From the NCBI RefSeq assembly GCF_006345805.1, contig NC_042998.1, positions 62,062,001 through 62,126,000 of the forward strand: a stretch of 64,000 nt of DNA, in the 5' to 3' direction. The stretch comes from Octopus sinensis (lineage: Eukaryota). How positions within the stretch are numbered: the stretch's first letter is position 1; every line of letters begins with the position of its first letter. Below the pieces are notes generated by a model. That model worked only from the letters and a program-made list of their open reading frames with translations. It was not told the origin of the DNA and searched no databases. The position numbers and the translations under genes are program-made. Of the stretch, positions 4,846 through 59,029 are shown piece after piece.

Positions 4846-5199
4846 CACTGCCAAGAGGCTATGATGTCAGGGTTTGTTCGGATGTCAGTGGCCACCAACA
4901 CATCAAAGGAGATTTCCAGACAGATGAAAAAAAAAGGAAGGTTGGTCAAATAAAGAAATGACTCCAGAAAGTTCTTCCAAGGTCATCTGATCAACAAAAA
5001 TGTGATTTGACTTTTATTGCACAAGTGAACTAAAGAGTTTTTTGAAAAAAATTGTTGAAAGGCACCAATTATGAAAATTGTCCTCGGTGGGGAGTGGTCA
5101 CACCCCTTGCTCCCTTACTAACTATGTTCACAATGGTGAGAGAGTGGAGGTAAAAGAAAATCAGTGTGACACATATAGGAAGTCATTATTTAGATTGGA

Positions 5200-5392
5200 A
5201 TTTAGCATGCTGGGCAAAACGCTTAGCAGCATTTCGTCCATCTTTACATTCTGAGTTCAAATTCTGCTGAGGTAGACTTTGCCTTTCATCCTTTCAGGGT
5301 CGATAAATTAAGTACCAATGATACACTGGGTTGATGTAATCAACTTGTCCCCTCCCCAAATTTCAGGCTTTGTGCTTAGAGTAGAAAGAATT
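5200..5392 (+). mobile_element. SINE family B with Deu/Nin-like central domain
   Basis: gagttcaaattc B-box-like motif followed by gactttgcctttcatcctttcagggtcgataaattaagtacca. Copies at 8300-9085, 19765-19955 and 20786-21005. Confidence 0.7.
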
Positions 5393-5660: not shown

Positions 5661-5756
5661 AGATATACAAAGATATACATACATACATACATATATTTAT
5701 ATACCTACATGCATGCATATATATATATATATATATATACACATGTATATACATAT

Positions 5757-6170
5757 ACAATTGCAGCATGGAAGGTGTTTGTAAGCCATTTAAGAAACAC
5801 ACAAAAGCCGTTGGAATCACTTCAACATTTAAGTTTAATTTGTCAAAATATTTTCGGCGCTAAAATCCATGACTTGTTCACTGACAAAAATCTGTGTTGC
5901 ATCACGTGCTGCTAAGCATTTTGCCCAGCATGCTAAATTCCAATCTAAAAAATGACTTCCAATATGTGATAGCACGGATTTTTGTCAGTGAACAGGTCGT
6001 GGATTTTAGTGACGAAAATATTTTGACAAATTAAACTTAAATGTTGAAGTGAATCGAACGGCTTTTGTGTGTTTCTTAAATGGCTTACAAACACCTTCCA
6101 CGCTGCAATTGTTTTCGTTCCAGCACACAATCTCAGATCAAATCACTTGCTATGCGAGTACATCTCCGTA
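5757..6170. mobile_element. Fold-back (head-to-head) PLE-like non-coding element, with an HHR-like motif in each arm
   Basis: Arms 5757-5900 and 5971-6110 are reverse complements, flanked by (TA)n. Second copy at 17950-18308. Confidence 0.8.
5981..6030 (+). ncRNA. Minimal hammerhead-like motif with G3-C8 core (GTGAACA)
   Basis: tttgtca GTGAACA g gtcgt ggatttta gtgac GAAA atat TT tgacaaa. Mirror copy at 5839-5888 (-). Confidence 0.65.
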
Positions 6171-7129
6171 ATATATACATATATATATATATATATGTAT
6201 AAACACACACACACATGTATATATATTATACTATCCAAGCCATGCAGCATGGGCAATGGATGTTAAATTATGATGATGATGATAATGATGATGACGATCA
6301 TGATTATCATCATCATCATCATCATCATTGTCATTGTCATCATTTAATGTCTGTTTTCCATGCTGGCATGGGTTTCCAATCTGACTTGGCAAGGTTTCTA
6401 CAGCTGGATACCCTTCTCAACACCATTGTAAGTAATAATTAAAATATTTCTTTTCTGCTCCTTTTTCAAGTTTCTATTATTTTCTCTGCACTGATGAGTA
6501 TTTTGCTATTTTCAAATTCTAAAATAAATTTATACCTATGTACAAAACAATCGTATGCATGAATAAACTTCTTATAACTTTTTAACATCTTATCTCCTCC
6601 ATTTTTGACAAATATGATTGGATTTGTAGGACTTCTTGGTATGAATTAATCATACACTTAATATCAGAAGTAGATATATTTATGTTTTGTATTCAAGCCT
6701 ACATATTATTTAAATATTATCTAAATAATTAAATAAGAACATTTCTTCTGGCCAAATTCCATTCCTATGTCAACTGAAAATGTTGTTATTAATTCCTGTT
6801 GTTTTTGACATTGTTAACATTTTTAGCATAAATCTTGAGGTCATCCACAAAGAAATTATGGGTTACAATAATAATAATAAGTTGCAGACCCTAATATGTA
6901 GCTGCTTTTTTTTTTTTTGTGGAAATGATAATGAGTTTAATGCCAGATATGTACAGAAATACAGGGAGACCCTCTCTTTGGAATATTTGCTTCAAAATAT
7001 TTATGGTATTAGAGATGATCATTCCACTCTCTGTTCTCAGTGTGAGGATTGTGGCTCAGGTCTTTGTGAGCCCTTCAAGGGTGGAAATTAATGGTAGCAG
7101 GAGCTTTTGCCAAATGGAGACACTTCAGC

Positions 7130-7805
7130 AGTATGTATGCATGTATGTATGTATGTATGTATGTATGTATGTATGTATGTATGTATGTATGTATGTATGT
7201 ATGTATGTATGTATGCATGCATGCATGCATGCATGTATGTATGTATGTATGAATGCATGTATGTATGCATGCATGCATGTATGTATGTATGTATGTATGT
7301 ATGTATGTATGTATGTATGTATGTATGTATGCATGAATGTATGTGTGTATGTATGTGTGCATGTATGTGTGTATGGTTGTATATATGTGTATGTATGTAT
7401 GTATGTATGTGTGTGTATATATGTATGAATGTATGTATCTGTGTATGTATGAATGTATCTATGTATGTTTGTGTATATATATATGCATGTATGTGTGTAT
7501 ATGTATGCATGTATTTATGTATGTATGTTTGTATGCATGTATGTGTGTGTATGTATGTTTGTATGAATGTATGTATGTTTTTATGTATGTATGAATGTAT
7601 TTATGTGTGTATATACGTATGTATGTATGTATGTATGTATGTATGTATGTATGTATGTATGTATGTATGTATGTATGTTTGTATGAATGTATGTATGTGT
7701 GTATGAATGTATTTATGTGTGTATGAATGTATGTATTATGTATGTATGTGTGTGTATGTATGTATGCATTTATGTATGTACGTGCATCTCCATGTATGTG
7801 TGTGT
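7130..7805. repeat. Long compound (TATG)n/(TG)n microsatellite
   Basis: About 670 bp of tatg/catg/tgtg repeats, which generate the MYVC/HTYI ORFs. Confidence 0.95.
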
Positions 7806-8299
7806 AAATGTTTGCTTGCATTTGCATTTCTCCAAAGAATGCAAGCTACAACCATTGATGATGTCACTTCTATCAAGAAGCTGTTTGCTGGTTTTTCCCC
7901 TTCAAAGGCATGTCAAATAAAAGATCCATTACTCGAAAAATATGTAAAGGTTGTTAGTGACAAGAAAGGCATCTCACTATAAAAACAGTAATATATTCCC
8001 CCTAACCCATGCTAACATGGAAAAACAGACATAAAAACAAACAAACAAAGTTGACCTTGGTGCCAAGAATAAACACCTGGTCATCAGAGAACCTTATTCA
8101 GACCAGTCACAAGATTAGAAGAAGGAGCTTCTAACTAACTGGTTCTCAAACAGAGTCCATATGAACCCCTGAGGGTCCATATAGGATTTGGGTCTCCACA
8201 GTAGGATTTTAGAGGTCTTTGAGAAAGTTTTGCTTTAGATGCACTTGCTGCAAGAAACAAGTAGGTTTCTTTCTCTAACACTTAACATAGTTCTTCATA

Positions 8300-9085
8300 A
8301 TCCTTTCTATGATAGGCACAAAGCCTGAAATTTGGGGGAGGGGGCAAGTCAATCTCATTGACCCCAGTGCACTACTGGTACTTATTTCGTCAACTCCGAA
8401 AGGATGAAAGGCAAAGTTGACCTTGGTGGAATTTGAACTCAGAATTTGGACCTCACAGAGGCAATGGCAAAAGGCTGAGACCTCAGGAGATATGCTGTGA
8501 CTGAGAAGACCTGACAAATAAGATGAGTTCACAGCTGTAACCTACATCAGTGCCGCATAACCACCCCACTCAAAAGTACCTTGGATCGTAGGGCGACATG
8601 TTGTGCTTGAAGAGACATTGAGTCAAATACATCAACATGAATATCAAATCAAACCACAATCAAATGGAAATTGTAGTTGTGATCCCTGTGCAGGTGGCAC
8701 ATAGAAAGCACCACCCGAACGTGGCCGATGGCAGCGCCGCCTTGACTGGCTTCCATGCTGGTGGCACATAAAAAGCACCATCTGATTGTGGTCGATGCCA
8801 GCTCCCTCTGGCCTCTGTGCCAGTGGCATGTAAAAAAGCACCCACTACACTCTTGGAATGGTTGGCATTAGGAAGGGCATCCAGCTATAGAATCACTGCC
8901 AGATCAGACTGGAGCCTGGTGCAGCCTCCTAGCTTCTGAGACCCCAGTTGAACCGTCCAACCCATGCCAGCATGGAAAGCGGACGTTACACAATGATGAT
9001 GATGGTGATTATGTAACAATGGATGAAATGCCACTAAGTATTTTGCCTGGCATGCTAAAGATTCTGCCAGCTCATTGCCTTCAAC
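8300..9085 (-). mobile_element. SINE family B split by an RTE insertion
   Basis: 3' part at 8300-8445 and 5' part at ~9015-9085. Confidence 0.65.
8448..9010 (+). mobile_element. RTE-LINE 3' fragment
   Basis: gacctcacagaggcaatg...(gtggcac.taaaaagcacc)x3...acccatgccagcatggaaagcggacgtta+(tga)n. Confidence 0.85.
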
Positions 9086-9551
9086 ATAGTTTTACAAAGA
9101 AGTGGGTAAAACTAGCTGAGCAATGTTGACCACAAGGCTCACATTGAAATAGCAATAAAGTTATATCTCTTTTTGATAAATATATCTTTGTATATTCAGG
9201 TCTTGTTTTTCTAGTAAACATTCTTTTTCCATTGAATTTAGTTGCTAAAAGTTATGTCCAATAAACTGGTTATATTTATCATCCACACACCTACACATGC
9301 ACACACGCACACGTCAATGTCACCAGCCCCCTTCCACACATACATACATGCTCTCACATACACACACACATGCTCTCACATACACACACACACACACACA
9401 CACATGCACCTTCGTTTTGGGATCACCACTACTTTATTATCTCCTCTTCTTCCTAGCCCTCCTGTGTGACCTTCTCTGTCCAGCATTCGCCATATAGATC
9501 ACTAGCCACTAAGCCTTTTTCTATTTTCTCTCCCCGTATATTTCTGTGTTC

Positions 9552-9587
9552 CTTTCTGTTGAAGAGCATAGGCTCGAAACGTAAAAG
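9552..9587 (+). ncRNA. Minimal HHR-like motif, A6 mutated
   Basis: cttt CTGTTGA a gagc atag gctc GAAA CG TA aaag. Confidence 0.5.
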
Positions 9588-10299
9588 ACTTTCTCGCTTC
9601 CCGAGCGTTAAACTAATACATATGATTGTTGTTTACACACCTGTCTCTGTCTTTTTTGTAAATTCTCATTATATTTACATAATACACAAAATGTTTTAAT
9701 TTTTATACAATTCCTAACATTATTTATAGAAACACAACATATTTTCAGAATACCAAATAGTAATCGAGGTGATTCATAGGTTAAAAACGGTTGAGAACTA
9801 CTGTTCTAACTTGTTACTTGAAATGCTAAAAATAGCAGCCAAATCCCCCTCAAATATCACACTCCACTATCTTCAAAAAAAATTAAAATGACACATTTAA
9901 GACTGTAGATCCTATATAAGAAAAATATGCAATGATTACAGTTAGAACACCTTTGATAATAGGTTTGCTCAACCATGATTGACTTGGGGTTAAACAACAT
10001 AAGGAAGATGGAGTATCATATGTTAGGGAAGGGAATGGTATTTGACTCCTTGTTTATAGGTCTTGGGTTCAAATCTACTGCTGGCATTTCATAGTTTCTT
10101 TTATACCTTAATTCTGCCATACCTTGGTTTACATAGCTGTCAAGAATAAGTACCAGACGACCAGGAATTATATTCACCATTATGTACTAATAGGATAAGC
10201 TGTGACTTTTTTATTTATAAAACAATGGGTGTGAAAAACTACATGCAACCTGTCTGCCAAACCTTGTTCAGGATTGGAAATTTGCAGCACACATGATAG

Positions 10300-10720
10300 C
10301 AAACACACACACACACACACAGAGTCACTCACTCACTCACACATACATACACACACACACACATAGACACACACACGCACACATGGACACACACACACAC
10401 ACACACTCATTCACACATGAACATGGACACACACTCACTCACTCACACATGGACACATACACACACACACACACTCACACATAGACACACACACACACAC
10501 ATTCACTCACTCATACATGGGCACACACACACACACACTCATTCATTCACACATAGACACACACACACTCACTCACTCACACACAGACACACACACACAT
10601 GGGCACAAACACACACTCACTCACTCACACATGGACACACACCACACACACACACTCACTCACTCACACTCACACATGGACACACACACACACACACACA
10701 CTCACACATGGACACACACA
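10300..10720. repeat. Compound (CA)n/(CACT)n microsatellite with recurring catggacac
   Basis: Direct reading. Confidence 0.9.
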
Positions 10721-12934
10721 TTGGGAAATGATTGAATATGAATGGGATGGGTTGATATCACTCATGAAGAATTGCAATAAATACATTGGCAGAAAGAAAC
10801 CAAACTTAAGCTATGGGGAAAAACAGACTGGATATAGGAGGAGATAGTGTGGAGCTGAGCAACTGAGGTGATAGACTCACAATATGAGTGATGGGAGGAG
10901 GAGAGATGAGTAATTTGGAAAGGCCAGGGTGGAAGTGACATAGGATCAGCCAGCAACTTTGCAGAGTTTGTCGTTCTCAGTCTTTTTGATATCCAGGTCA
11001 TATCCAAAATCTGGAATCTTTTAGGCGTCTACACCCGCTAAAGTAAAACACTAGCCAATTAAAGGAAAATTTATTACATTTATAGAGAGAAGACTGACTG
11101 TCAAGCGCTTTGAGAAGGATGGTTGAGAACTGCATGCGGCCATGAGAGCTATAGCTGAGAACTGCTATTGTAGTAGCAGTAGAGAAAACAAAAGAAGACA
11201 GTATATCAGTCAGAACTGAGATTGGAACATGTGAGGGCGAGTGATTTCATACCAATCAGTTGAGTTAACCCCTCTCCTACACACACACACACACACACAC
11301 ACACAAATACTTTCTTTAATATGGTCCTGTCTGAGTGTGTGTGTGTCTGTCTGTGTCTGTGTGTGCAGCAGCAACATCATCCCCTGTTGTAGGAGCTACA
11401 CCCCATTCTAAGTTTCATCTGTTTCTTTGTTGAGGACTAAAAAACTGATCACAATGAAGTAGATTCTGGCCCCGAAGAGGAAAGCCAGTCTTTAGGACAC
11501 ATCATCATTTCACCATCAAGATTTTTTACATCTGCTTATCCTTGTTGGCATGGGTTGGGTGGGTTCTTATGGTCTAAGTCAATCCATATTTGGAATTACT
11601 AATTTCCCAGATGTGATGAGGGTGGATCATTTTTCATTTGTTTCTTTTATTTGGACATTGTTTCTATGGCTAGGTACCCTTTCTAACACTAACCTGTGCA
11701 TTGGACACATTTTATCATAGTGCCAGCACTTAAGTTGTTATCATATTCTCAAAAGGCAGGGCTAAGTGGTACTTTCAATCCTACATTGTCTCCACTTACC
11801 AATCACTTGTGGGAATGAGGTGAACCGGAAGGAAAGAACAGTGATGTCAATGGCTGCGGGACCCTACAGGAAGAGGAAGAGGCAGTGAGGAAGTGAGGGA
11901 AGCAGGACCAGCATGGGCCTCTTTTGGTCTCAGGTAGTGGTAGTGGATGGAAGAGTGTAGACATGTAAGCTAGACTGGCATTAGCGGTAGTTCTAGAGGC
12001 ATGTTAAACGGGTAGGGTGCATCTCGAGGTTAACCTAACTATGGCACCAGCACTAGTGAGGTTGCTTTGTATTATGCAAGACAAAAGGTTTCCCACCACT
12101 GCTTGTTATCTACATTCAGAGCACTACAATAAGTTCATTATTATTATTATTATTACTGCATACATGAGAATAATAAAATTATCGTGAGAAGAGTCCTGAC
12201 GTCTATTTACTAAGCTGTACACAAAAATAGAATTTTCAGTTAAATGTCAGTAATCGTGTCCAGATACTAGTTTTATTTTGACAGACTAGGTAGGAGAGAA
12301 GAAGAAGACTGCAGCAGATAAACTAATGTGGTGGGGACAGGGAGAGAAAGAAACAAGAGTTGTTCTAGTTCTTTATACCCTGAGTTCAAATCCCAACATA
12401 GTCTACTTGAATGGTAGAATTAATTCATAGCTCAGTTTGACACCAATGCATGACATTATTTGTGCTTTTAATGGAGGCCACTCCATTGCAAGCATTTTTG
12501 CTCGGTCTCTACTTCAAGGATATTTTCCTCTCTCCTTCCATCCCTACCATTTTCAGTCTTAGATACCTTGTGAAGCATCATGAGCTTTGCCTTCCTTCTA
12601 GACTAAAACAAAAAAAAAATTTATCTGTGTATGATGATCCAAAAATAGTAGAGGGATGTTCAAAGTGGTCACTTAAATATGCTAGAAATAACAACTGAAT
12701 TTTCCTCAGGGCAAACCCTACTGTCTTAAACAAAGAAGAGCACATTTTTATGATAGTCTTAGGTGTGTGATTAAGAAGCTCACTTTGTAATCTCATGGCT
12801 CTATGTTCAGTTCCATTGCACAGCACAGCACCTTGGGGGAGTCTCTTCAACTTTAGCCCCAGGCTGATCAATGACTTGCAAGTGAACTTGGAAACTTGGC
12901 AAAAGTTTATTGTGTGTATAAATTTATATATATA

Positions 12935-13082
12935 ATGGTTGTATACTGTCAATTTAACGTGACAGTAGGTGATTACACCACTGCTGTTTAGCCCAGGAAG
13001 CATCGAATGCTTCCTGTCGGCTTCGACACACTTACTGTGTCCTTATATATTTACGAAGGGGAGACAAATACCCCCAACAGCT
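12935..13082 (+). mobile_element. Diverged fragment of the 355-bp retrozyme-like family
   Basis: ttacaccact...gcccaggaagcatcgaatgcttcctgtcggcttcgacacatt.ctgtgtccttatat matches 23597-23758. Confidence 0.75.
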
Positions 13083-13223
13083 ATATATATATATATGCAC
13101 ACACATATATATATAGCTGTTAGACATTATATTATTTCTATTTATTTATTTTAAACAGTTCAGAAAATATACAAATACATGTGTAAAGTATTAGTAATTT
13201 CTAGAACAAAGAAAAAGAGCAAT

Positions 13224-13352
13224 TTCTTACAGCTGTTTCAGCCTAGAGGTCACAGTACCACATATGTTATTTCCATCTTTTCAGTGTATTGTAGTAATCT
13301 GTAGATAAAATTAGGGTACTTGGGTATGCCTCTAAGCTTTGTCAAAGAGTTT
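13224..13352 (-). ncRNA. Decayed HHR-like motif with long stem II
   Basis: Minus strand: ctct TTGACAA agcttagagg..cctctaggct GAAA CAGCTG TA aga. Related copy at 43401-43518 has CTGACAA. Confidence 0.45.
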
Positions 13353-13408
13353 TTATAAGATAGTCCAAGAAGTTCATAGGGTTAATTTATGCATATAAAT
13401 ATATATAT

Positions 13409-13475
<67 letters not shown>

Positions 13476-13488
13476 TTACATATATACA

Positions 13489-13536
<48 letters not shown>

Positions 13537-13985
13537 ATATATATATATATATAATATATATATATATTATATATATATATATATAATATATATATATATA
13601 TTATATATATACATTTACCTATATACATACACACCCATACATACATATACTTACACACATGCATGTATATATTCATGGATATGCTTATAACAGAATTAGT
13701 TATTAGTAGTTGTAATACAATATTTTTATTAGACCATATATAAAAAGAGAAATAGAAAGAGAAAGTAAAAGAGAAATAACAGTATAATCGAAGAAAATAA
13801 TGAGGTTTGTGGGGGTTACGGTTTTTTAGAACTGAAAACGTACATAAAAGGAGAAATACATATGTATACATACATGCAATAAAGACACATACATATATAC
13901 ATATACATATATACGCATATATGTACACACACATATTTCATGTGTTAGGTAAGATGTATTTCTGCAATGGTTTGTATTGTCCTTG

Positions 13986-14146
13986 CATGAGTGGCTGTGT
14001 GGTAAGTAGCTTGCTAACCAACCATGTGGTTCCGGGTTCAGTCCCACTGTGTGGCACCTTGGGCAAGTGTCTTCTACTATAGCCTCAGGCTGACCAAAGC
14101 CTTGTGAGTGGATTTGGTAGATGGAAACTGAAAGAAGCTTGTCGTA

Positions 14147-14218
<72 letters not shown>

Positions 14219-14440
14219 GTGTGTGTATATGTTTGTGTGTCTGTATTTGTCCCTCTAGCATTGCTTGACAACCAATGCTGGTGTGTTTATGTCCCCGTCA
14301 CTTAGCAGTTCAGCAAAAGAAACCGATAGAATAAGTACTGGGCTTACAAAGAATAAGTCCCGGGGTCGATTTGCTCGACTAAAGGCAGTGCTCCAGCATG
14401 GCCACAGTCAAATGATTGAAACAAGTAAAAGAGTAAAAGA
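13986..14440 (+). mobile_element. Full-length SINE family A
   Basis: Head, CORE-like block, internal (TA)n and gtaaaaga tail all present. Confidence 0.88.
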
Positions 14441-14509
14441 GAGAATGAATGAATGAACAAATGCACACACATAGATGTACCTCTACATATACACAAATAT
14501 ATCATGTGT

Positions 14510-14675
14510 TTCACTTGGTCTCACTTGGTTTACCAGGTCTTCTCAAGCACAGCATATCTCCAAAAATCTCAGTCGCTTGTAATCACCTCAGTGAGGCCCA
14601 ACATTTGAAGATCGTGCTTCACCACCCCATCCCAGGTCTTCCTGTTAGGGTGGGACACTTTTTTCACACAGCTGG
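14510..14675 (-). mobile_element. RTE-LINE C-terminal fragment
   Basis: ggtcttctcaagcacagcatat...gatcgtgcttcaccacc. Confidence 0.7.
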
Positions 14676-14967
14676 CACCACAACTTTCTGACAAGTTGTG
14701 GTGCACCTGAGCACTGTATACAATAATTTCATTATTATTATTATTTTTAAAAGATACATTCTTATTGTTTGTATTTGTAATTGTGTACCATGTTCTCCGT
14801 TTTTTTGTCTTTGTAATAAAAATTCATCAAATTGTTGAAATTCTCCACACTAGCAGTAAAACCCATCGTTGATCGGGTAATTACTTTTACTATTTATCAG
14901 GAGCCACTTTCAAAGTATTATTATATGTGTAATTTACTCCTCCTATATGTGTGCATTTTTAGAAGGG

Positions 14968-15250
14968 AAAAACCATGTAATAATTAAAGTAGAAGAAAGA
15001 TCAATATCATACATGAACTTGTGTTTGTTTATGATATGACAATAATAACTGAGCTATATGTCTTATTTTATTTATCTATACAGTAATGGCAATGATATAA
15101 TATTTTTATAAGTGAAAAAAATGTAATAATTGAAGTAGAAAAAAGATCATTTTTATACATGAAGTTCAATTTGTTTATTACATGATAATAGTAAGTGAGA
15201 TGTATGTGTTATTTTATTTATCAATTTAGTAATGACAATTATATAGTATA
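14968..15250. repeat. Diverged 145-bp tandem duplication
   Basis: atgtaataatt.aagtagaa.aaagatca at 14976 and 15121. Confidence 0.75.
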
Positions 15251-15631
15251 ATTCATTAAAATGGTTAATTTATTCATTCTAGAATGTAATGATAGTAATG
15301 GTAAATGATATTACTGAAGTATTCATGTTGCATTAAGAATGAATATTTCTTTATGAACAATGTTTTTGTTTTACTTCAGGGTAGGGTACATAAGCCTCTA
15401 CTACAAACAGTGAGAATGTTTGGGCCAATAAAGTTGGTGCACAATTAATCTTGTACCATTGCATAATTTTGGTTTGAGACAAAATATGGAATACTTAATC
15501 GGAGTCCTTTTTCTCAATTGAACACAATGAGGAACTGTACCTGGTGGTTGTAGTGAGTTAAAGAATTCGATGGGGTAGTTGACACTATCCTGATCATCAA
15601 CAACACTGTCAATTGAGTTATAAGTGAATAC

Positions 15632-15988
15632 TTACTCTTTTACTTGTTTCAGTCATTTGACTTGGGCCATGCTGGAGCACCGCCTTTAGTCGAGCAAATC
15701 GACCCCAGGACTTATTCTTTGTAAGCCTAGTACTTATTCTATCGGTCTCTTTTATGGAACTGCTGAGTTACGAGGACATAAACACACCAGCATCAGTTGT
15801 CAAGCGATGTTGAGGGGACAAACACAGACACACAAACGAAAATACACACATACATATATATATACATATATACAACAGGCTTCTTTCAGTTTCCGTCTAC
15901 CAAATCCACTCACAAGGCTTTGGTAGACTGAACCCGGAACCATGTGGTTGGTAAGCAAGCTACTTACCACACAACCACTCCTACACCT
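15632..15988 (-). mobile_element. SINE family A with internal deletion
   Basis: Tail and head present, CORE-like block missing at ~15925. Confidence 0.8.
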
Positions 15989-16099
15989 GGAAATTTATTC
16001 AATAGCATATTATTTATGGTATGTAGAGGAACATTTTTTGGCGCCAGGATAGCTCTGTCACCGATGTCTTGTTGTAATTATGCAGAAGATTAGGAAAGG

Positions 16100-16370
16100 T
16101 AACAGAAAGAGAGAGATTGACAGAAAGAAAGAGAGTGAGTGACAGAAAAAGAGAGAGAGAAGGAAGGAGAGACAGGAAGAGAGAGAGCAAGAGACGACAG
16201 AAAGAGAGAGAAGCATAAAGAGAGAGAAAGAGGAAAAGAGGGAGAGAAAGAAAGGGAGAAAAGAAGAAAGAGAAAGAAAGGAAGAGAGAGGGAGAAAGAA
16301 AGAAAGAGGGGGAATAGAGAGATAGAGATAGACAGGGAGAGAAGAGAGGTAGAGACAGAAAGAGAGGATA
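16100..16370. repeat. Purine-rich (GA/GAAA) low-complexity tract
   Basis: Direct reading. Confidence 0.9.
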
Positions 16371-16415
16371 CTCATGGTATTAAATGACTGAAACATGAAT
16401 ATATATATGTATATA

Positions 16416-16481
<66 letters not shown>

Positions 16482-16708
16482 TGTGGGTGTGGGTGTATTT
16501 TTAATTCTTGCTTGCGTATTTTGACAAAGAAATGTTTGATGTGTGTGTGTGTTCATTTAGTGAGGGAAAGAGAGAAAGAAAGAAGGAGGAGAAGAAGAAA
16601 GAGAGAGAAAATAGACAGATAGAGAAGAAAGAAAATCATAGAGATGGTGTCTGGTTTTACTTTGTGAGACAAACAGACAGAACCTCTCTTTTATATATAT
16701 ATATATAT

Positions 16709-17092
16709 ATGTGGCTGTGTGGAAAAAACTTGCTTCCCAACCACATGGTTCCGGCTTCAGTCTTACTGTGTCTTTTAGTATATCCTTGAACTGACCAAAG
16801 CCTTGTGAGTGGATTCGGTAGACGGAAACCAAAAGAAGTATATATATACACACACACACACACATTTACATATGTATATATTTGTATGTTTGTGTCTGTT
16901 TGTACCCACCGACCATCACTTGGCAACCAATGTTGGTGTTTTTACGTCCCTGTAACTTAACAGTTTGGCAAAAGAGACCAATAGAATCAGTTGCAGGCTT
17001 ACAAATAATAAGTCCAGAGGTTGATTCCTTCGACTAAAAGGTGGTGCTCCAGCATGGCCACAGACAAATGACTGAAACAAATAAAAGAATAT
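16709..17092 (+). mobile_element. SINE family A (diverged)
   Basis: gtggctgtgtgg...aaatgactgaaacaaataaaagaat. Confidence 0.8.
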
Positions 17093-17514
17093 AAAAAAAT
17101 AAACTAATCCTTCAGCATATCGCAGTTCACCTATCGCGCACTCATCACATCTCAGATTTCTCTGGCTATTATATGTAAATATATATCGCTGACTTCTCAG
17201 TATGTCCAGGTTTCTGCAGCCAATAGGCATTTATAGCTTTTTTGATTTTATTTATTTCTGTGGGAGGTTTTGGAACATAACATTCGCAATAGTTAAGAGA
17301 TTTGATCCACGTGAGTCCAAATACATAAATGTATGTTGGGAGATTGTCTTAACCTGATTTGCCTTCGATTGATTTCTGTAGTTATCATCAGTGTATTATG
17401 GTGATTTAATTAAGAGTTTTGACTGTTATTTCCAGCAGGTAGACATACTTAGTATGTCCTTTGATTAATTTTAATCCTTCAGATATATATATATGTATGT
17501 ATATACCTACACCA

Positions 17515-17885
17515 GTTTTGCATAACCAGCCCCAGCCCATTCAAAAGTACCTTGGATCGTAGCGTGAAATGCTGTGCTTGAGGAGACCTATTGAGTCAAG
17601 TACATCAACAACAAAATAAAAATCAAATGGAAATTGTAGTTGTGATCCCCGTGCCAGTGACATGTAAAATGCACCATCTGAACACGGCCAATGCCAGTGC
17701 TGCCTTGACAAGCTTCCATGCTGGTGGCACATAAAAAGCACCAACCAATTGTGGCTGTTGCCAGCCTCCTCTAGCCCCTGTGCCGGTGGCATGTAAAAAT
17801 CACCTACTACACTCACAAAGTGGTTGGTGTTAGGAAGGGCATTCAGCAGTAGAAACACTGCCAGATCAGACTGGAGCCTGATGAT
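17515..17885 (+). mobile_element. RTE-LINE 3' UTR fragment
   Basis: Three gtggcac.taaaaa units and ttaggaagggcat...gccagatcagactggagcctg. Confidence 0.8.
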
Positions 17886-17915
17886 AATGTATATATATGT
17901 ATATATGTATATATC

Positions 17916-17949
<34 letters not shown>

Positions 17950-17953
<4 letters not shown>

Positions 17954-18308
17954 GATGTACTCACATAGCAAGTGATTTGATCTGAGATCGTGTGCTGAAA
18001 CGAAAACAATTGCAGCGTGGAAGGTGTTTGTAAGCCATTTAAGAAACACACAAAAGCCGTTCGATTCACTTCAACATTTAAGTTTAATTTGTCTAAATAT
18101 TTTCGTCGCTAAAATCTGTGACCTGTTCACTGACGAAAATCCGTGCTGCAATTTGCCAAAGAGATGCAGCACGGATTTTTGTCAGTGAACAGGTCGCAGA
18201 TTTTAGCAACGAAAATATTTTGACAAATTAAACTTAAATGTTGAAGTGAATCGAACGGCTTTTGTGTGTTTCTTAAATGGCTTACAAACACCTTCCATGC
18301 TGCAATTG
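17950..18308. mobile_element. Fold-back PLE-like element (second copy) with G3-C8 HHR-like motifs at 18088-18137 (-) and 18178-18227 (+)
   Basis: Arms ~18007-18150 and 18165-18308, embedded in (TA)n. Confidence 0.82.
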
Positions 18309-18490
18309 TATATATATATATATATATATATATAAATTAAATTAGAGATAAAACCACTATTAGGAAACTCAAACAGTGATAGACATAAACCAAAACATAA
18401 AAAACAAAAAATAAATATAATTAATATAATATATAATATATATATAAAATATAAAATATAAATATTTTATATTTCTCCTTCTCCTCCTCC

Positions 18491-31434: not shown

Positions 31435-32428
31435 TCATTGAAAGGAGGAGAGTGTTATAAGTATCTAGGAGTATTATAATCTGACAAAGTACTAACTATA
31501 AAAATAAAAATGAAAACTGAGAAGGAGTACATCAGAAGGGTGAAGAAGCTAATGAAGTTAAAGCTAAATGGTCCGAATCTTGTGAAGGCTGTTGATACTT
31601 GGGCAGTTTCATTACTTAGATACTCAGCAGCTTTTATAGATTGGACAAAAACTGAATTTTCAGAGCTAGACAGAAGAACTAGGAATGAATTCAATATGAA
31701 TGGAAAGCTCCACCCAAGGGCAGGAGTAGTAAGATTATACATACCCAGAAAAGAAGGTGGAAGAGGGTTACTATCAGTAGAACACTCCATGGAGTTAGCT
31801 AGAATAGATATAGATTCCTGTGTAGGTAATAGGGAAGAAAATTTACTAAAAGCTGCTAGAGTCACAGCAAGACATGGGGAAACCAAAAACCCAAACGATG
31901 TTAAAAACCAGAAAAAAGAACAGAAGTTATCTGACTGGCAGGAGAAGGTGTTGCATGGTAGATTCCCAAAGATAGTTGCAGCAAATAATAGTAGTGAGAC
32001 ATGATTATGATTGCATAAAGGAAAGCTGAAAAGGGAGAAAGAAAGTTTGTTAGTAGCTGCACAAGTTCAAGCACTAAGGACTAATTGGATAAAAGCCAAG
32101 ATAGATAAAAACCAAGTAGATTCCCAATGTAGGTTATGGAAATCAAAAGAGGAAAGCATTACGCATATAGCAAGTGAATGTAGCATGCTGGCATAGAAAA
32201 TACACAAGAAAAGATATGATAACCTAGGGAGAGTAATCCATTGGTAGTTATGTAGAAAGTTAGGATTTGACCATACTGATAAATGGTATGAACATGAACC
32301 TACTAAAGTACTAGAAAGTAAGTACAAGGTGTTGTGGTACTTTAACATTCAGACTGACAGTTAACAGAAGCTAGAAGGTCTGATTTGGTTGTAGTAGATA
32401 AAGAGAATAGAAAGTGCCAAATAATTTA
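31435..32428 (+). pseudogene. R4/Dong-like LINE ORF fragment (post-RT region, CCHC, start of RLE)
   Basis: YKYLGVL, EYIRRVKKLMKLKLNGPNLVKAVDTWAV, RLYIPRKEGGRGLLSVE, LLVAAQVQALRTNWIK, CRL..EESITHIASECSMLA, VLWYFNIQTD. Confidence 0.85.
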
Positions 32429-35655: not shown

Positions 35656-36113
35656 ATATGAAATCGACAGATATCAGCCAGTAAACATTCTAGTATGTTT
35701 ATTTATTCCAATGTATTGGTTTGGTTCGCACACATGTATTAGTGATATAGATAATCAAGTGGAAAGAGCTAGTAATTGCAAAAATATGGGTGTGGAAGCA
35801 TATAAGCAGATAGGAATGAGTGATCAATTGAGCAGATGAGCAAATGAGCAGATTGTCTATAAAACCGAATGGGTGTGTAGGTGCTAGTTCCTACACACCC
35901 ATTCGGTTTTATAGACAATCTGCTCATTTGCTCATCTGCTCAATTGATCACTCATTCCTATATACTTCCACACCTTTGTTTTTGCAATTATCAATTACTA
36001 ACTCCTTCTACTTAATTATCTGTACCACTAATACATGTGTGTATATCAATCCAATACATTGGAATAAATAGCTATACAGGAATGTTTACCAGCTGATGTC
36101 TGTCGATTTCATA
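35656..36113. repeat. Fold-back with perfect inner ~70-bp arms and diverged outer arms
   Basis: taggaatgagtgatcaattgagcagatg...gggtgtgtagg [tgctagtt] cctacacaccc...ctcattccta. Confidence 0.85.
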
Positions 36114-56109: not shown

Positions 56110-56751
56110 TATATATGTGCATACCTTCCTTCTTGTGACACTTGTGAAGACCTGTTGAGGCAAGTGAAAATCAAAAAATCAAAAAATCAAACAAAATCAA
56201 AATAGATGAACATCAATGGAATTTGTATCCTTGTGGTACCAGTGCCGGTGGCACAGAGGAAAACCATCCGAACGTGGCCGTAGCCAGTACCACACCGACT
56301 GGCCTCCATGCTGTGGGCACGTAACAATCACCATCCGATCATGGCCGATCGCCAGCCTCATATGGCTCCTGTGTCGGTGGCACATAAAAAACACCATCCG
56401 AGCGTGGTCGTCTGCTAGCCTTGTCTGGCACCTGTGTCGGTGGCACATAAAAACACCATCCGAGCGTGGCCGTTCGCCAGCCTCGTCTGGCACCTGTGTC
56501 GGTGGCACATAAAAACACCATCCGAGCGTGGCCGTTCGCCAGCCTCGTCTGGCACCTGTGTCGGTGGCACATAAAATCACCCACTACACTCTCGGAGTGG
56601 TTGGCGTTAGGAAGGGCATCCAGCTGTAGAAACACTGCCAGATCTGACTGGCCTGGTGCAGCCTTCGGGCTCCCCAAACCCCAGTTGAACCGTCCAACCC
56701 ATGCTAGCATGGAAAGCGGACGTTAAATGATGATGATGATGATGATGATGA

Positions 56752-56805
<54 letters not shown>

Positions 56806-56808
56806 CAT

Positions 56809-56980
56809 ATCATCATCATCATCATCGTTTAACGTCCGCTTTCCATGCTTGAATGGGTTGGACGGTTCAACTGGGGTCTGGGAAGCCCAAAGTCTGCACC
56901 AGGCCAGTCAGATCTGGCAGTGTTTCTACAGCTGGATGCCCTTCCTAACGCCAACTACTCCGTGAGTGTAGTGGGTGCTT
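56809..56980 (-). mobile_element. RTE-LINE 3' tip
   Basis: Shared terminus. Confidence 0.85.
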
Positions 56981-57193: not shown

Positions 57194-57495
57194 TACATAC
57201 GTAAATTTTGCTTAATTGGAGTTTAAATTTTAAAAACTGGACCTGGCATGACCCGATGCATTCTACTCTTAAAAATGCTAGGTAAATTGTAATTGAAGAA
57301 ATCCTATATTGTAGTTTTCTATAAGTTACAAAGGGAGGCAGATGAAATCTGCCTTTTATAATAAGAGATACATAAACATATATATGTATGTATATATATA
57401 TATATGTATATATATATATAAATTTTAAGTCCCCCGTACTAAGAATGAAAAGAATCATAAATTGAAAAGCCAGACATACCTGTATATATATATAT

Positions 57496-59029
57496 AGCCT
57501 AGTCACCCGTATAGTTAATCAGGTGATACATGAAGGAGTCATACCCAATGACTGGTGTAGCAGCATAATAGTCAACTGCTACAAAGGTAAAGGTGACGCC
57601 CTAGATACAAATAATTACAGAGGTATCAAGCTATTGGATCAGGTAATGAAGGTTACGGAGAGGGTCATAGCCCAACTAATTAGAGAGAGAGTTAGTTTAG
57701 ATGAGATGCAGTTTGGGTTCGTGCCAGGGAAAAGTACCACTGATGCTATATTCCTGGTAAGGCAGCTGCAGGAGAAATACCTAGCCAAAGATAAGCCCCT
57801 GTACCTGGCTTTTGTTGACTTGAAGAAAGCCTTCGACAGGGTCCCCCGATCCCTTATCTGGTGGTCAATGAGGAAACTAGGAATAGATGAATGGTTAGTG
57901 AGAGCTGTGCGAGCCATGTACAGGGACGCTGCTAGTGAGGTGAGGGTTGGCAACGAGTACAGTGAAGAATTCCGGGTAGAGGTAGGAGTCCACCAAGGCT
58001 CAGTCCTCAGCCCCCTCCTATTTATCATAGTCCTCCAGGCAATAACGGAGGAATTCAAGACAGGATGCCCTTGGGAGCTCCTCTATACTGATGACCTTGC
58101 TCTAATTGCTGATTCACTATCAGAACTGGAGAAGTTTCAGGTGTGGAAGCAAGGATTAGAATCGAAGGGCCTTAGAGTCAATCTAGCTAAAACCAAAGTC
58201 CTAATAAGGTAGACAAATCACAAACGCCTTCAGGTAGATGGCCCTGCTCAATCTGTAGAAAAGGTGTAGGTAGAAACTGTATAAGATGCACCAAGTGTAA
58301 GCTATGGACACATAAGAGGTGCAGCAATGTCAAAGGAAGGCTAACTAGGAAGATGGTTTTTGTATGTGGCAGATGCTCAGGAACAATAAACACTGAAAAT
58401 GCTCTGAGACCAACTTCTGTCACTTTCCTGGGAGAAAAACTAGAAATAGTTGATAGCTTCCGTTACCTAGGTGACCAAGTCAGCAGCGGGGGTGGGTGTG
58501 CTGAAAGTGTAACTGCTAGAGTAAGAATAGCTTGGGCAAAGTTCAGAGAGCTCTTACCTCTGCTGGTGACAAAAGGCCTCTCGCTCAGAGTAAAAGGCAG
58601 ACTGTATAACACGTCTGTACAAACAGCCATGCTACTTGGCAGTGAAACATGGGCTGTGACTGCTGAGGATATGCGTAAGCTCGCAAGAAATGAAGCCAGT
58701 ATGCTCTGATGGATGTGTAATGTCAGTATTCATACTCGACAGAGTGTAAGTACCTTGAGAGAAAAGCTGACCTAAGAAGCATCAGATGTGGTGTGCAAGA
58801 GAGACGTTTGCGCTGGTATGGACATGTGGTGAGAATGGATGAAGATAGTTGTGTGAAAAAGTGCCACACCCTAGCAGTTGAGGGAACCTGTGGAAGAGGC
58901 AGACCCAGGAAAACCTGGGACGAGGTGGTGAAGCACGACCATCGAACTTTAGGTCTCACCAAGGAAATGACTAGAGACTGAGACCTCTGGAAGTATGCTG
59001 TGTGCAAGAAGACCCGGCAGGACAAGTGA
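57496..59029 (+). pseudogene. RTE-clade LINE ORF, 5'-truncated: RT domain, PHD finger and C-terminal region
   Basis: NYRGIKLL, QFGFVPGKSTTDAIF, AFVDLKKAFDRV, GVHQGSVLSPLLF, LLYTDDL, GLRVNLAKTKV, RRLRWYGHV. Frameshifts near 58208 and 58768, stop at 58707. Confidence 0.95.

What the first reader, a model, noticed from the sequence alone, without database searches (positions are those of the whole stretch)
5839..18227. Hammerhead family with a naturally swapped G3-C8 catalytic-core pair
Seen in 4 copies (5839-5888 -, 5981-6030 +, 18088-18137 -, 18178-18227 +), consensus tttgtca GTGAACA g gtcgc ggatttta gcgac GAAA atat TT tgacaaa. This gives a 7-bp stem I, a 5-bp stem II, GAAA, a palindromic AATATT stem III and a UUU site, exactly the minimal type-I topology, but the core is G3-U4-G5-A6-A7-C8-A9 instead of CUGANGA. 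GTGAACA and GAAA are invariant in all four copies while the stems vary. Known: C3-G8 is a tertiary Watson-Crick pair and the engineered C3G/G8C double mutant rescues cleavage. Inference: a natural compensated ribozyme that standard CUGANGA searches would miss. I cannot confirm whether it has already been catalogued.
Basis: partly seen in the sequence, partly recalled or inferred. Interest (0 to 1): 0.88.

Follow-up and report, generated by a model that had tools for sequence, protein, structure and literature searches.

The report
Swapped-core hammerhead of a Penelope retroelement
The four motifs are truncated ends of a jumping gene (a Penelope-like retrotransposon) found in thousands of copies in this genome; they carry a small hammerhead-shaped RNA in which two paired core letters are swapped compared with sister elements, so intact copies likely still cut themselves, though cutting is untested.

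Summary
The four motifs are two inverted pairs of 5'-truncated ends of a Penelope-like retrotransposon (RT, CxxxCxxC linker, GIY-YIG), probably from an octopus. In a full-length copy the motif lies in both pseudo-LTRs, just before the ORF start, where these elements carry minimal type-I hammerheads.

G3-C8 is the family-wide state: 6,903 genome matches against 3 in the control, and 47 of 50 copies sampled without regard to the core. An older relative also has it. A sister family (54% protein identity) has the same architecture with C3-G8, so the swap is a true compensated change at a tertiary pair.

Activity is untested. Against strict selection, a large sister subfamily carries A9C and about 2% of copies are G3-G8.

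Engineered G3-C8 and natural U3-A8 are published. I found no published natural G3-C8, but two key papers were unavailable. This scan noted G3-C8 before, in phages and protist elements. Verdict: new variant of a known kind.

The parts
5757..5903 (-). 5'-truncated 3' end of the Penelope-like element, inverted copy without tail
   Evidence: blastn to the full element, 91% over 147 nt; inverted arm
5839..5888 (-). G3-C8 hammerhead motif, decayed (two stem II mismatches); predicted cut 5846|5845
5971..6172 (+). 5'-truncated 3' end with the ~58-nt tail; holds the first codons of the element ORF (ATG at 6080)
   Evidence: 95% over 202 nt to the full element; ATG and tail end; two element ends seen as depth steps and loose ends
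5981..6030 (+). G3-C8 hammerhead motif, all pairs kept (two G-U wobbles in stem II); predicted cut 6023|6024
17948..18150 (-). 5'-truncated 3' end with tail (ATG at 18038)
   Evidence: 95% over 203 nt
18088..18137 (-). G3-C8 hammerhead motif, one stem II mismatch and two stem I mismatches including the first pair; predicted cut 18095|18094
18162..18309 (+). 5'-truncated 3' end without tail (ATG at 18277)
   Evidence: 95% over 148 nt
18178..18227 (+). G3-C8 hammerhead motif, one stem II mismatch; predicted cut 18220|18221
5715..5756 (.). (TA)n-rich target microsatellite; similar runs flank the other ends at about 6171-6200, 17920-17950 and 18310-18334
   Evidence: sequence

Best explanation
The motif is the minimal type-I hammerhead in the pseudo-LTR of a high-copy Penelope-like retrotransposon, its core pair is swapped from C3-G8 to G3-C8 across the family, and in intact tandem elements it likely self-cleaves slowly, predicted as a dimer or with help from the element's protein. 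Shown: the element (RT, Zn-finger-like linker, C-terminal GIY-YIG, two pseudo-LTRs), the motif's place in both pseudo-LTRs about 50 nt before the ORF start, the family-wide G3-C8 state, and C3-G8 at the same place in sister families. Inferred: a transcript from the upstream pseudo-LTR carries two motifs 4.36 kb apart; the self-complementary AAUAUU segments pair between two motifs to form stem III; G3 pairs with C8 and holds nucleotide 8 in the active geometry; the cut falls after U17. The window's four copies are by-products of 5'-truncated, inverted insertion into (TA)n and are probably inert.
For: Full element with two 635-660-nt direct repeats (94% identical), a motif in each, and an ATG 92 nt after G3 leading into the RT-EN frame. 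A 1042-aa open frame with YVDD, CxxxCxxC and GIY-YIG motifs; Pfam GIY-YIG 24.1 bits, cut-off 22.6. G3-C8 in 47 of 50 core-unbiased copies and in 23 of 24 ORF-bearing loci with a readable motif, of 30 examined, some of them duplicates. Sister family at 54% protein identity: C3 in 91 and G8 in 98 of the first 100 listed of 3,531 matches, C8 in none (counted by hand). It shares U4-G5-A6, the extra G, G10.1-C11.1, GAAA and U16.1, with compensatory changes in stems II and III. An older relative (copies about 71% like their majority) has G3-C8 with a different N7, loop II and stem III length. Subfamily-diagnostic changes fall on 0 of 41 structured and 10 of 59 unstructured sites (p=0.005). An intact copy folds into stems I and II with the core unpaired. 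Literature: in a PLE hammerhead C3G and G8C each abolish cleavage, the double partly restores it, and cleavage needs the PLE protein (PMC11167929); in a saturation study the G:C swap was the only rescue in this motif (PMC9901934).
Against: No cleavage data. Published rescue by the double mutant is only partial, and metazoan minimal hammerheads are already slow. The swap is one evolutionary event in this genome, not repeated covariation. The largest sister subfamily has C at the normally invariant A9 (66 of the first 100 listed) and still amplified. G3-G8 copies are 36 of the first 100 listed of 484 G3/non-C8 matches (about 2% of the family) and include several pseudo-LTR/ORF junction loci. Hammerhead mutants do not affect PLE insertion in vitro. 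The unconstrained dimer prediction paired stems I and II between the two strands and did not form the AAUAUU helix. The old family was collected by a pattern that demanded G3-C8, so its other core states were not sampled. The 0/41 versus 10/59 test is post hoc and the loop II sites are not independent.
Confidence: 0.68

Rival explanations
1. A hammerhead descendant that no longer needs to cut. The helices are kept for another job (protein binding, RT start-site folding, translation start), and the 3-8 swap was fixed while catalysis was under relaxed selection.
For: Cleavage is dispensable for PLE insertion in vitro and no RNA ends were seen at the site in Anolis data (PMC11167929). Naiad PLEs thrive without canonical hammerheads (PMC8557442). 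The A9C sister subfamily amplified. G3-G8 copies occur at junction loci.
Against: The 3-8 pair is a tertiary contact of the catalytic core. By a rough calculation (inference), two random changes among about 13 conserved positions would hit 3 and 8 and stay complementary with probability near 0.4%. G3-C8 persists in an old and a young family while N7, loop II and stem III change.
Confidence: 0.26
2. A free-standing ribozyme family that acts at these loci, for example cutting a host transcript as a monomer or as the local pair.
For: Two motifs lie 40-90 nt apart at each locus; one window copy keeps all pairs.
Against: The paired motifs are on opposite strands, so one transcript carries a motif plus its antisense and folds into a 140-bp hairpin (-237 and -247 kcal/mol). 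Three of four copies have broken stems. The arrangement is the known inverted, 5'-truncated PLE insertion.
Confidence: 0.03
3. Terminal inverted repeats of a MITE-like DNA transposon; the hammerhead likeness is chance.
For: Long inverted arms; no Rfam hammerhead match.
Against: The arms are the 3' end of an RT/GIY-YIG element, with variable 5' truncation and a one-sided tail. Rfam also misses the canonical C3-G8 sister motif. Sister families show the canonical core at the same place.
Confidence: 0.01

Closest known systems
Minimal type-I hammerheads (min-HHRs) in pseudo-LTRs of metazoan Penelope-like elements (Cervera & de la Pena 2014, PMC4209133)
   Same: Location in the pseudo-LTR, type-I topology, G10.1-C11.1, one extra nucleotide after A9, short palindromic stem III, many solo and opposite-strand copies.
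   Different: Core is G3-C8. The 3-8 variant described in the parts I read is U3-A8 (Schistosoma, about 1,300 hits). The extra nucleotide is G here, H in their consensus; the canonical sister families share this G.
PAc (Poseidon, Anolis) hammerhead and its engineered C3G/G8C double mutant (Frangieh et al. 2024, PMC11167929)
   Same: PLE hammerhead at the pseudo-LTR/ORF junction; two element ends inside the ORF start define a tail; the double mutant has the same 3-8 state.
   Different: Here the swap is natural and fixed. The element has a CxxxCxxC linker (Neptune/Nematis type, absent in Poseidon), the ORF starts after the hammerhead rather than in stem II, and the tail is about 58 nt rather than 30-40.
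Natural U3-A8 hammerheads (Perreault et al. 2011, PMC3088659)
   Same: Natural covariation at the 3-8 tertiary pair.
   Different: A different pair (two transversions here). No G3-C8 in the passages seen.
C-terminal-EN Penelope-like elements of Neptune/Nematis type (Craig et al. 2021, PMC8557442)
   Same: RT, CX2-5CxxC linker, GIY-YIG with CCHH, partial tandems, inverted 5'-truncated copies, one-sided tail, (TA)n targets.
   Different: Clade not fixed by a tree here. They report canonical hammerheads in such elements.

Membership tests
Minimal type-I hammerhead of PLEs | Literal CUGANGA core (C3, G8) | tested here: not met
   Core is GUGAACA. So it is filed as a core variant, not as a canonical member.
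Minimal type-I hammerhead of PLEs | Watson-Crick complementarity of positions 3 and 8 | tested here: met
   G3-C8 in 47 of 50 copies; C3-G8 in sister families. The pairing geometry itself is inferred.
Minimal type-I hammerhead of PLEs | U4, G5, A6, A9, G12, A13, A14, A15.1-U16.1 conserved | tested here: met
   Majority state in 52 aligned copies.
Minimal type-I hammerhead of PLEs | Stem I and stem II with G10.1-C11.1, one extra nucleotide after A9 | tested here: met
   7-bp stem I and 5-bp stem II in the predicted fold of an intact copy; 22 of 50 copies fully intact.
Minimal type-I hammerhead of PLEs | Short palindromic stem III and an NUH cleavage triplet | tested here: met
   AAUAUU then U17.
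Minimal type-I hammerhead of PLEs | Dimer through the stem III palindrome | tested here: inconclusive
   The palindrome allows six intermolecular pairs, but the unconstrained two-strand prediction did not form them.
Minimal type-I hammerhead of PLEs | Location in the pseudo-LTRs of a PLE | tested here: met
   One motif in each of two direct repeats flanking the ORF.
Minimal type-I hammerhead of PLEs | Self-cleavage after N17 | not testable with these tools
   Only assembled contigs were available; they cannot show RNA ends.
Rfam hammerhead families | Match to a covariance model | tested here: not met
   No match for this motif, and none for the canonical sister motif, so the miss reflects the minimal form, not the swap.
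C-terminal EN+ Penelope-like element (Neptune/Nematis type) | RT followed by C-terminal GIY-YIG with CCHH in one ORF | tested here: met
   1042-aa open frame read by eye; Pfam GIY-YIG above cut-off on the C-terminal piece. Pfam RT matched only the sister protein, below cut-off (E=0.0022), and the full-length protein matched nothing; homologues carry PF00078 and PF01541.
C-terminal EN+ Penelope-like element (Neptune/Nematis type) | CX2-5CxxC linker before the endonuclease | tested here: met
   CxxxCxxC in this family, CxxxxCxxC in the sister.
C-terminal EN+ Penelope-like element (Neptune/Nematis type) | Pseudo-LTRs, inverted truncated copies, one-sided tail, (TA)n targets | tested here: met
C-terminal EN+ Penelope-like element (Neptune/Nematis type) | Placement in Neptune versus Nematis by RT phylogeny | not tested
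   No reference set of named PLE proteins was at hand; no tree built.

The most novel reading that the evidence does not exclude
An active natural G3-C8 hammerhead in an animal genome, at more than 7,000 copies and stable over an old and a young element family. Its fixation beside canonical sisters would show that Penelope-element ribozymes are selected for catalysis in vivo, and that CUGANGA-based surveys have missed a whole high-copy class.
Probability: 0.45. Interest if true: 0.66.

Novelty: new variant of a known kind. Interest (0 to 1): 0.5.

Why it matters
Whether PLE hammerheads cut for a purpose is open: they are slow, need protein, and are dispensable for insertion in vitro (PMC4209133, PMC11167929, PMC8557442). 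A compensated double change at a pair that belongs to the catalytic core is about the best sequence evidence that evolution has kept the active fold. This genome also supplies a natural allelic series in one homologous scaffold (C3-G8, G3-C8, G3-G8, A9C), which makes the question directly testable. In practice, descriptors should allow any Watson-Crick 3-8 pair: in this genome G3-C8 matches (6,903) outnumber matches to a looser canonical descriptor (2,519 with 378 in the control). The chemistry is not new, since the engineered swap and natural U3-A8 are published.

Tried and rejected
Copy-level conservation of core versus flank: no difference; rejected as a test of selection because inserted copies decay neutrally.

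Rfam scans: no hammerhead hit for this motif or for the canonical control; uninformative.

Expression and cleavage ends: no RNA holder listed; runs only guessed to be RNA, and held as contigs, showed no ends or splice joints; no conclusion drawn. DNA contigs of runs under three coded organism labels showed no listed difference of 3% or more at core positions 3-9 except none at all, with thinner cover there; weak.

A core-unbiased search meant to sample the old family was swamped by the sister family. tblastn found no ORF within 1.5 kb of the 30 old-family candidate loci, so their link to a PLE rests on 73% DNA identity to this family through the tail. An exact 47-nt pattern returned one match although more exist, so pattern counts are lower bounds. 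The unconstrained dimer fold did not give the catalytic dimer.

Literature on natural G3-C8: six full-text searches and three on PLE or octopus ribozymes found only engineered G3-C8. Lunse et al. 2017 (about PLE hammerhead variants) and Przybilski & Hammann 2007 (3-8 exchanges) were not held, and file 1 of the Cervera 2014 supplement was not searchable; a prior report could be in these, in figures, or in repeat databases. No earlier scan note exists for this sequence or genome.
Full report
Observation. The four 50-nt motifs are present as described. They form two inverted pairs with 140-145-nt arms, set in (TA)n runs. Pair by pair, only 5981-6030 is intact; the other three have stem II mismatches, mostly at CpG sites.

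What the repeat is. A search of the genome with one arm gave 1,406 candidates, and the 40 scored included many at 97-99%. Longer copies run upstream into an ORF. [quoted passage not shown] Locus L367 shows the whole unit: two direct repeats of 635-660 nt, a motif in each 4,361 nt apart, and an ATG 92 nt after G3 that leads into the RT-EN frame, with one frameshift in that copy. Copies end at two places about 58 nt apart inside the ORF start. Partial tandems, inverted truncated copies, a one-sided tail and (TA)n targets are the hallmarks of Penelope-like elements (PMC8557442, passages). The window arms match the unit's end at 91-96%. The nearest named protein hits are from Octopus vulgaris, so the host is probably an octopus (inference).

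Is G3-C8 the family state? Exact patterns gave 6,903 G3-C8 matches (control 3), 484 with G3 and another base at 8 (control 8) and 481 with another base at 3 (control 31). By hand count of the first 100 listed, holds 46 U8, 36 G8, 13 A8 and 5 non-family rows; one search holds 33 A3, 20 C3, 14 U3 and 33 non-family rows, with no C3-G8. For an unbiased sample I anchored on a downstream 28-mer (7,720 matches) and took 70 loci from the start of one contig. They held 79 anchored copies; 27 were truncated or rearranged before stem I, and I dropped one junction artefact and one local duplicate. Of the 50 left, 47 are G3-C8, 2 G3-G8 and 1 G3-U8; 22 are fully intact. Core and flank decay alike (10/450 versus 56/1906, p=0.52), as expected for neutral copies. 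Differences that mark subfamilies (second allele at 15% or more) fall on 0 of 41 structured and 10 of 59 unstructured sites (p=0.005; post hoc, sites not independent).

Is it a true swap? A sister PLE family with 54% protein identity has a motif at the corresponding place. A pattern blind to positions 3, 7, 8 and 9 gave 3,531 matches (control 0); of the first 100 listed, 91 have C3, 98 have G8 and none has C8 (hand count). These sisters share the extra G, G10.1-C11.1, GAAA and U16.1, and differ by compensatory changes in stems II and III. An older family with core GUGACCA (177 matches, control 80) is homologous through the tail. I aligned 20 of the 30 loci, leaving out 5 young copies with C7 and 5 unrelated or doubtful ones; they average 71% identity to their majority, which is 73% identical to the young family. 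It has a different N7, loop II and a shorter stem III palindrome, yet keeps G3-C8; note that it was selected on that core. Since C3-G8 is the general state of PLE hammerheads (PMC4209133, parts 1-2 of 4 and a keyword search of supplement file 2), G3-C8 is the derived state, fixed once in this lineage.

How it likely works. Shown: anatomy, position and family-wide swap. From the literature: such minimal motifs cut slowly and probably as dimers; in the Anolis PLE, C3G and G8C each abolish cleavage, the double partly restores it, cleavage needs the element's protein, and insertion in vitro does not need cleavage (PMC11167929, parts 1-2 of 4); the G:C swap was the only rescue of this motif in a saturation screen (PMC9901934, passages). 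Inferred: tandem transcripts carry two motifs, the AAUAUU palindromes supply stem III, and the cut falls after U17, about 50 nt before the start codon, trimming the element RNA. An intact copy folds with stems I and II and an open core, but the unconstrained two-strand fold did not form the palindrome helix. The window copies are probably inert, since each pair folds into one long hairpin.

Results against. The largest sister subfamily has C9 (66 of the first 100 listed, A9 32, U9 2), so an off-consensus core did not stop amplification. G3-G8 copies occur on several subfamily backgrounds and at several pseudo-LTR/ORF junction loci, some of them duplicates. The swap is one event. No activity or RNA-end data exist. 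I put the chance that intact G3-C8 motifs cleave at about two in three.

Comparison and novelty. It works like a PLE minimal hammerhead and fails only the literal CUGANGA consensus. Rfam misses it, but also misses the canonical sister. Natural U3-A8 is published (PMC3088659, passages; PMC4209133). Nine searches found G3-C8 only as an engineered variant (PMC3884650, passages). Passages of PMC10085705 and PMC12192606 and part 1 of 5 of bioRxiv 10.64898/2026.07.22.740005 added nothing on it. Lunse et al. 2017 and Przybilski & Hammann 2007 could not be read, so a prior report is not excluded. Earlier notes of this scan describe G3-C8 in phages and, with an extra core base, in protist PLEs (not checked here). 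What this case adds is an animal example with an otherwise clean core, thousands of copies, and canonical sisters in the same genome.

Verdict. Real; new variant of a known kind; interest 0.5.

Noticed in passing
L368-L397 (e.g. L370:1503-1509); G000-wide: The largest subfamily of the sister PLE has C in place of the normally invariant A9 (66 of the first 100 of 3,531 matches): a second natural core variant at high copy number.
   Followed up: partly
L153, L155, L157-L159, L165, L166; G3-G8 (uncompensated) copies are more common than G3-A8 (36 versus 13 of the first 100) and sit at several pseudo-LTR/ORF junctions; a mobile sublineage or a mutation hotspot.
   Followed up: partly
L367:3520-3547; L015 just upstream of 1500: A branch-point-like ACUAAC, a pyrimidine tract and an AG lie just 5' of stem I in long copies, suggesting an intron in the pseudo-LTR as in Drosophila Penelope. 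Splicing was not seen in the contigs laid.
   Followed up: partly
L117-L146: At least three further canonical minimal-hammerhead repeat families in the genome, unrelated in sequence to this one.
   Followed up: no
L059; G000:C2:155795200: Two copies with A3-U8, another complementary pair; probably two independent transitions.
   Followed up: no
window 57466-58709 (+) and 31480-32004 (+): Fragments that look like non-LTR (LINE-type) reverse transcriptase genes, by eye.
   Followed up: no
window 56664-56891 and 35825-35946: Other long inverted repeats that draw spurious miRNA-family hits in Rfam.
   Followed up: no
window 5897-5970 and 5157-5231: The spacer between the first pair of arms holds a 76-nt piece of another repeat that recurs at 5157-5231 (91%).
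   Followed up: no
protein P0100: An annotated Octopus vulgaris protein named as a dynein regulatory subunit matches 19% of the PLE protein at 66% identity; possibly a gene model that swallowed an element fragment.
   Followed up: no
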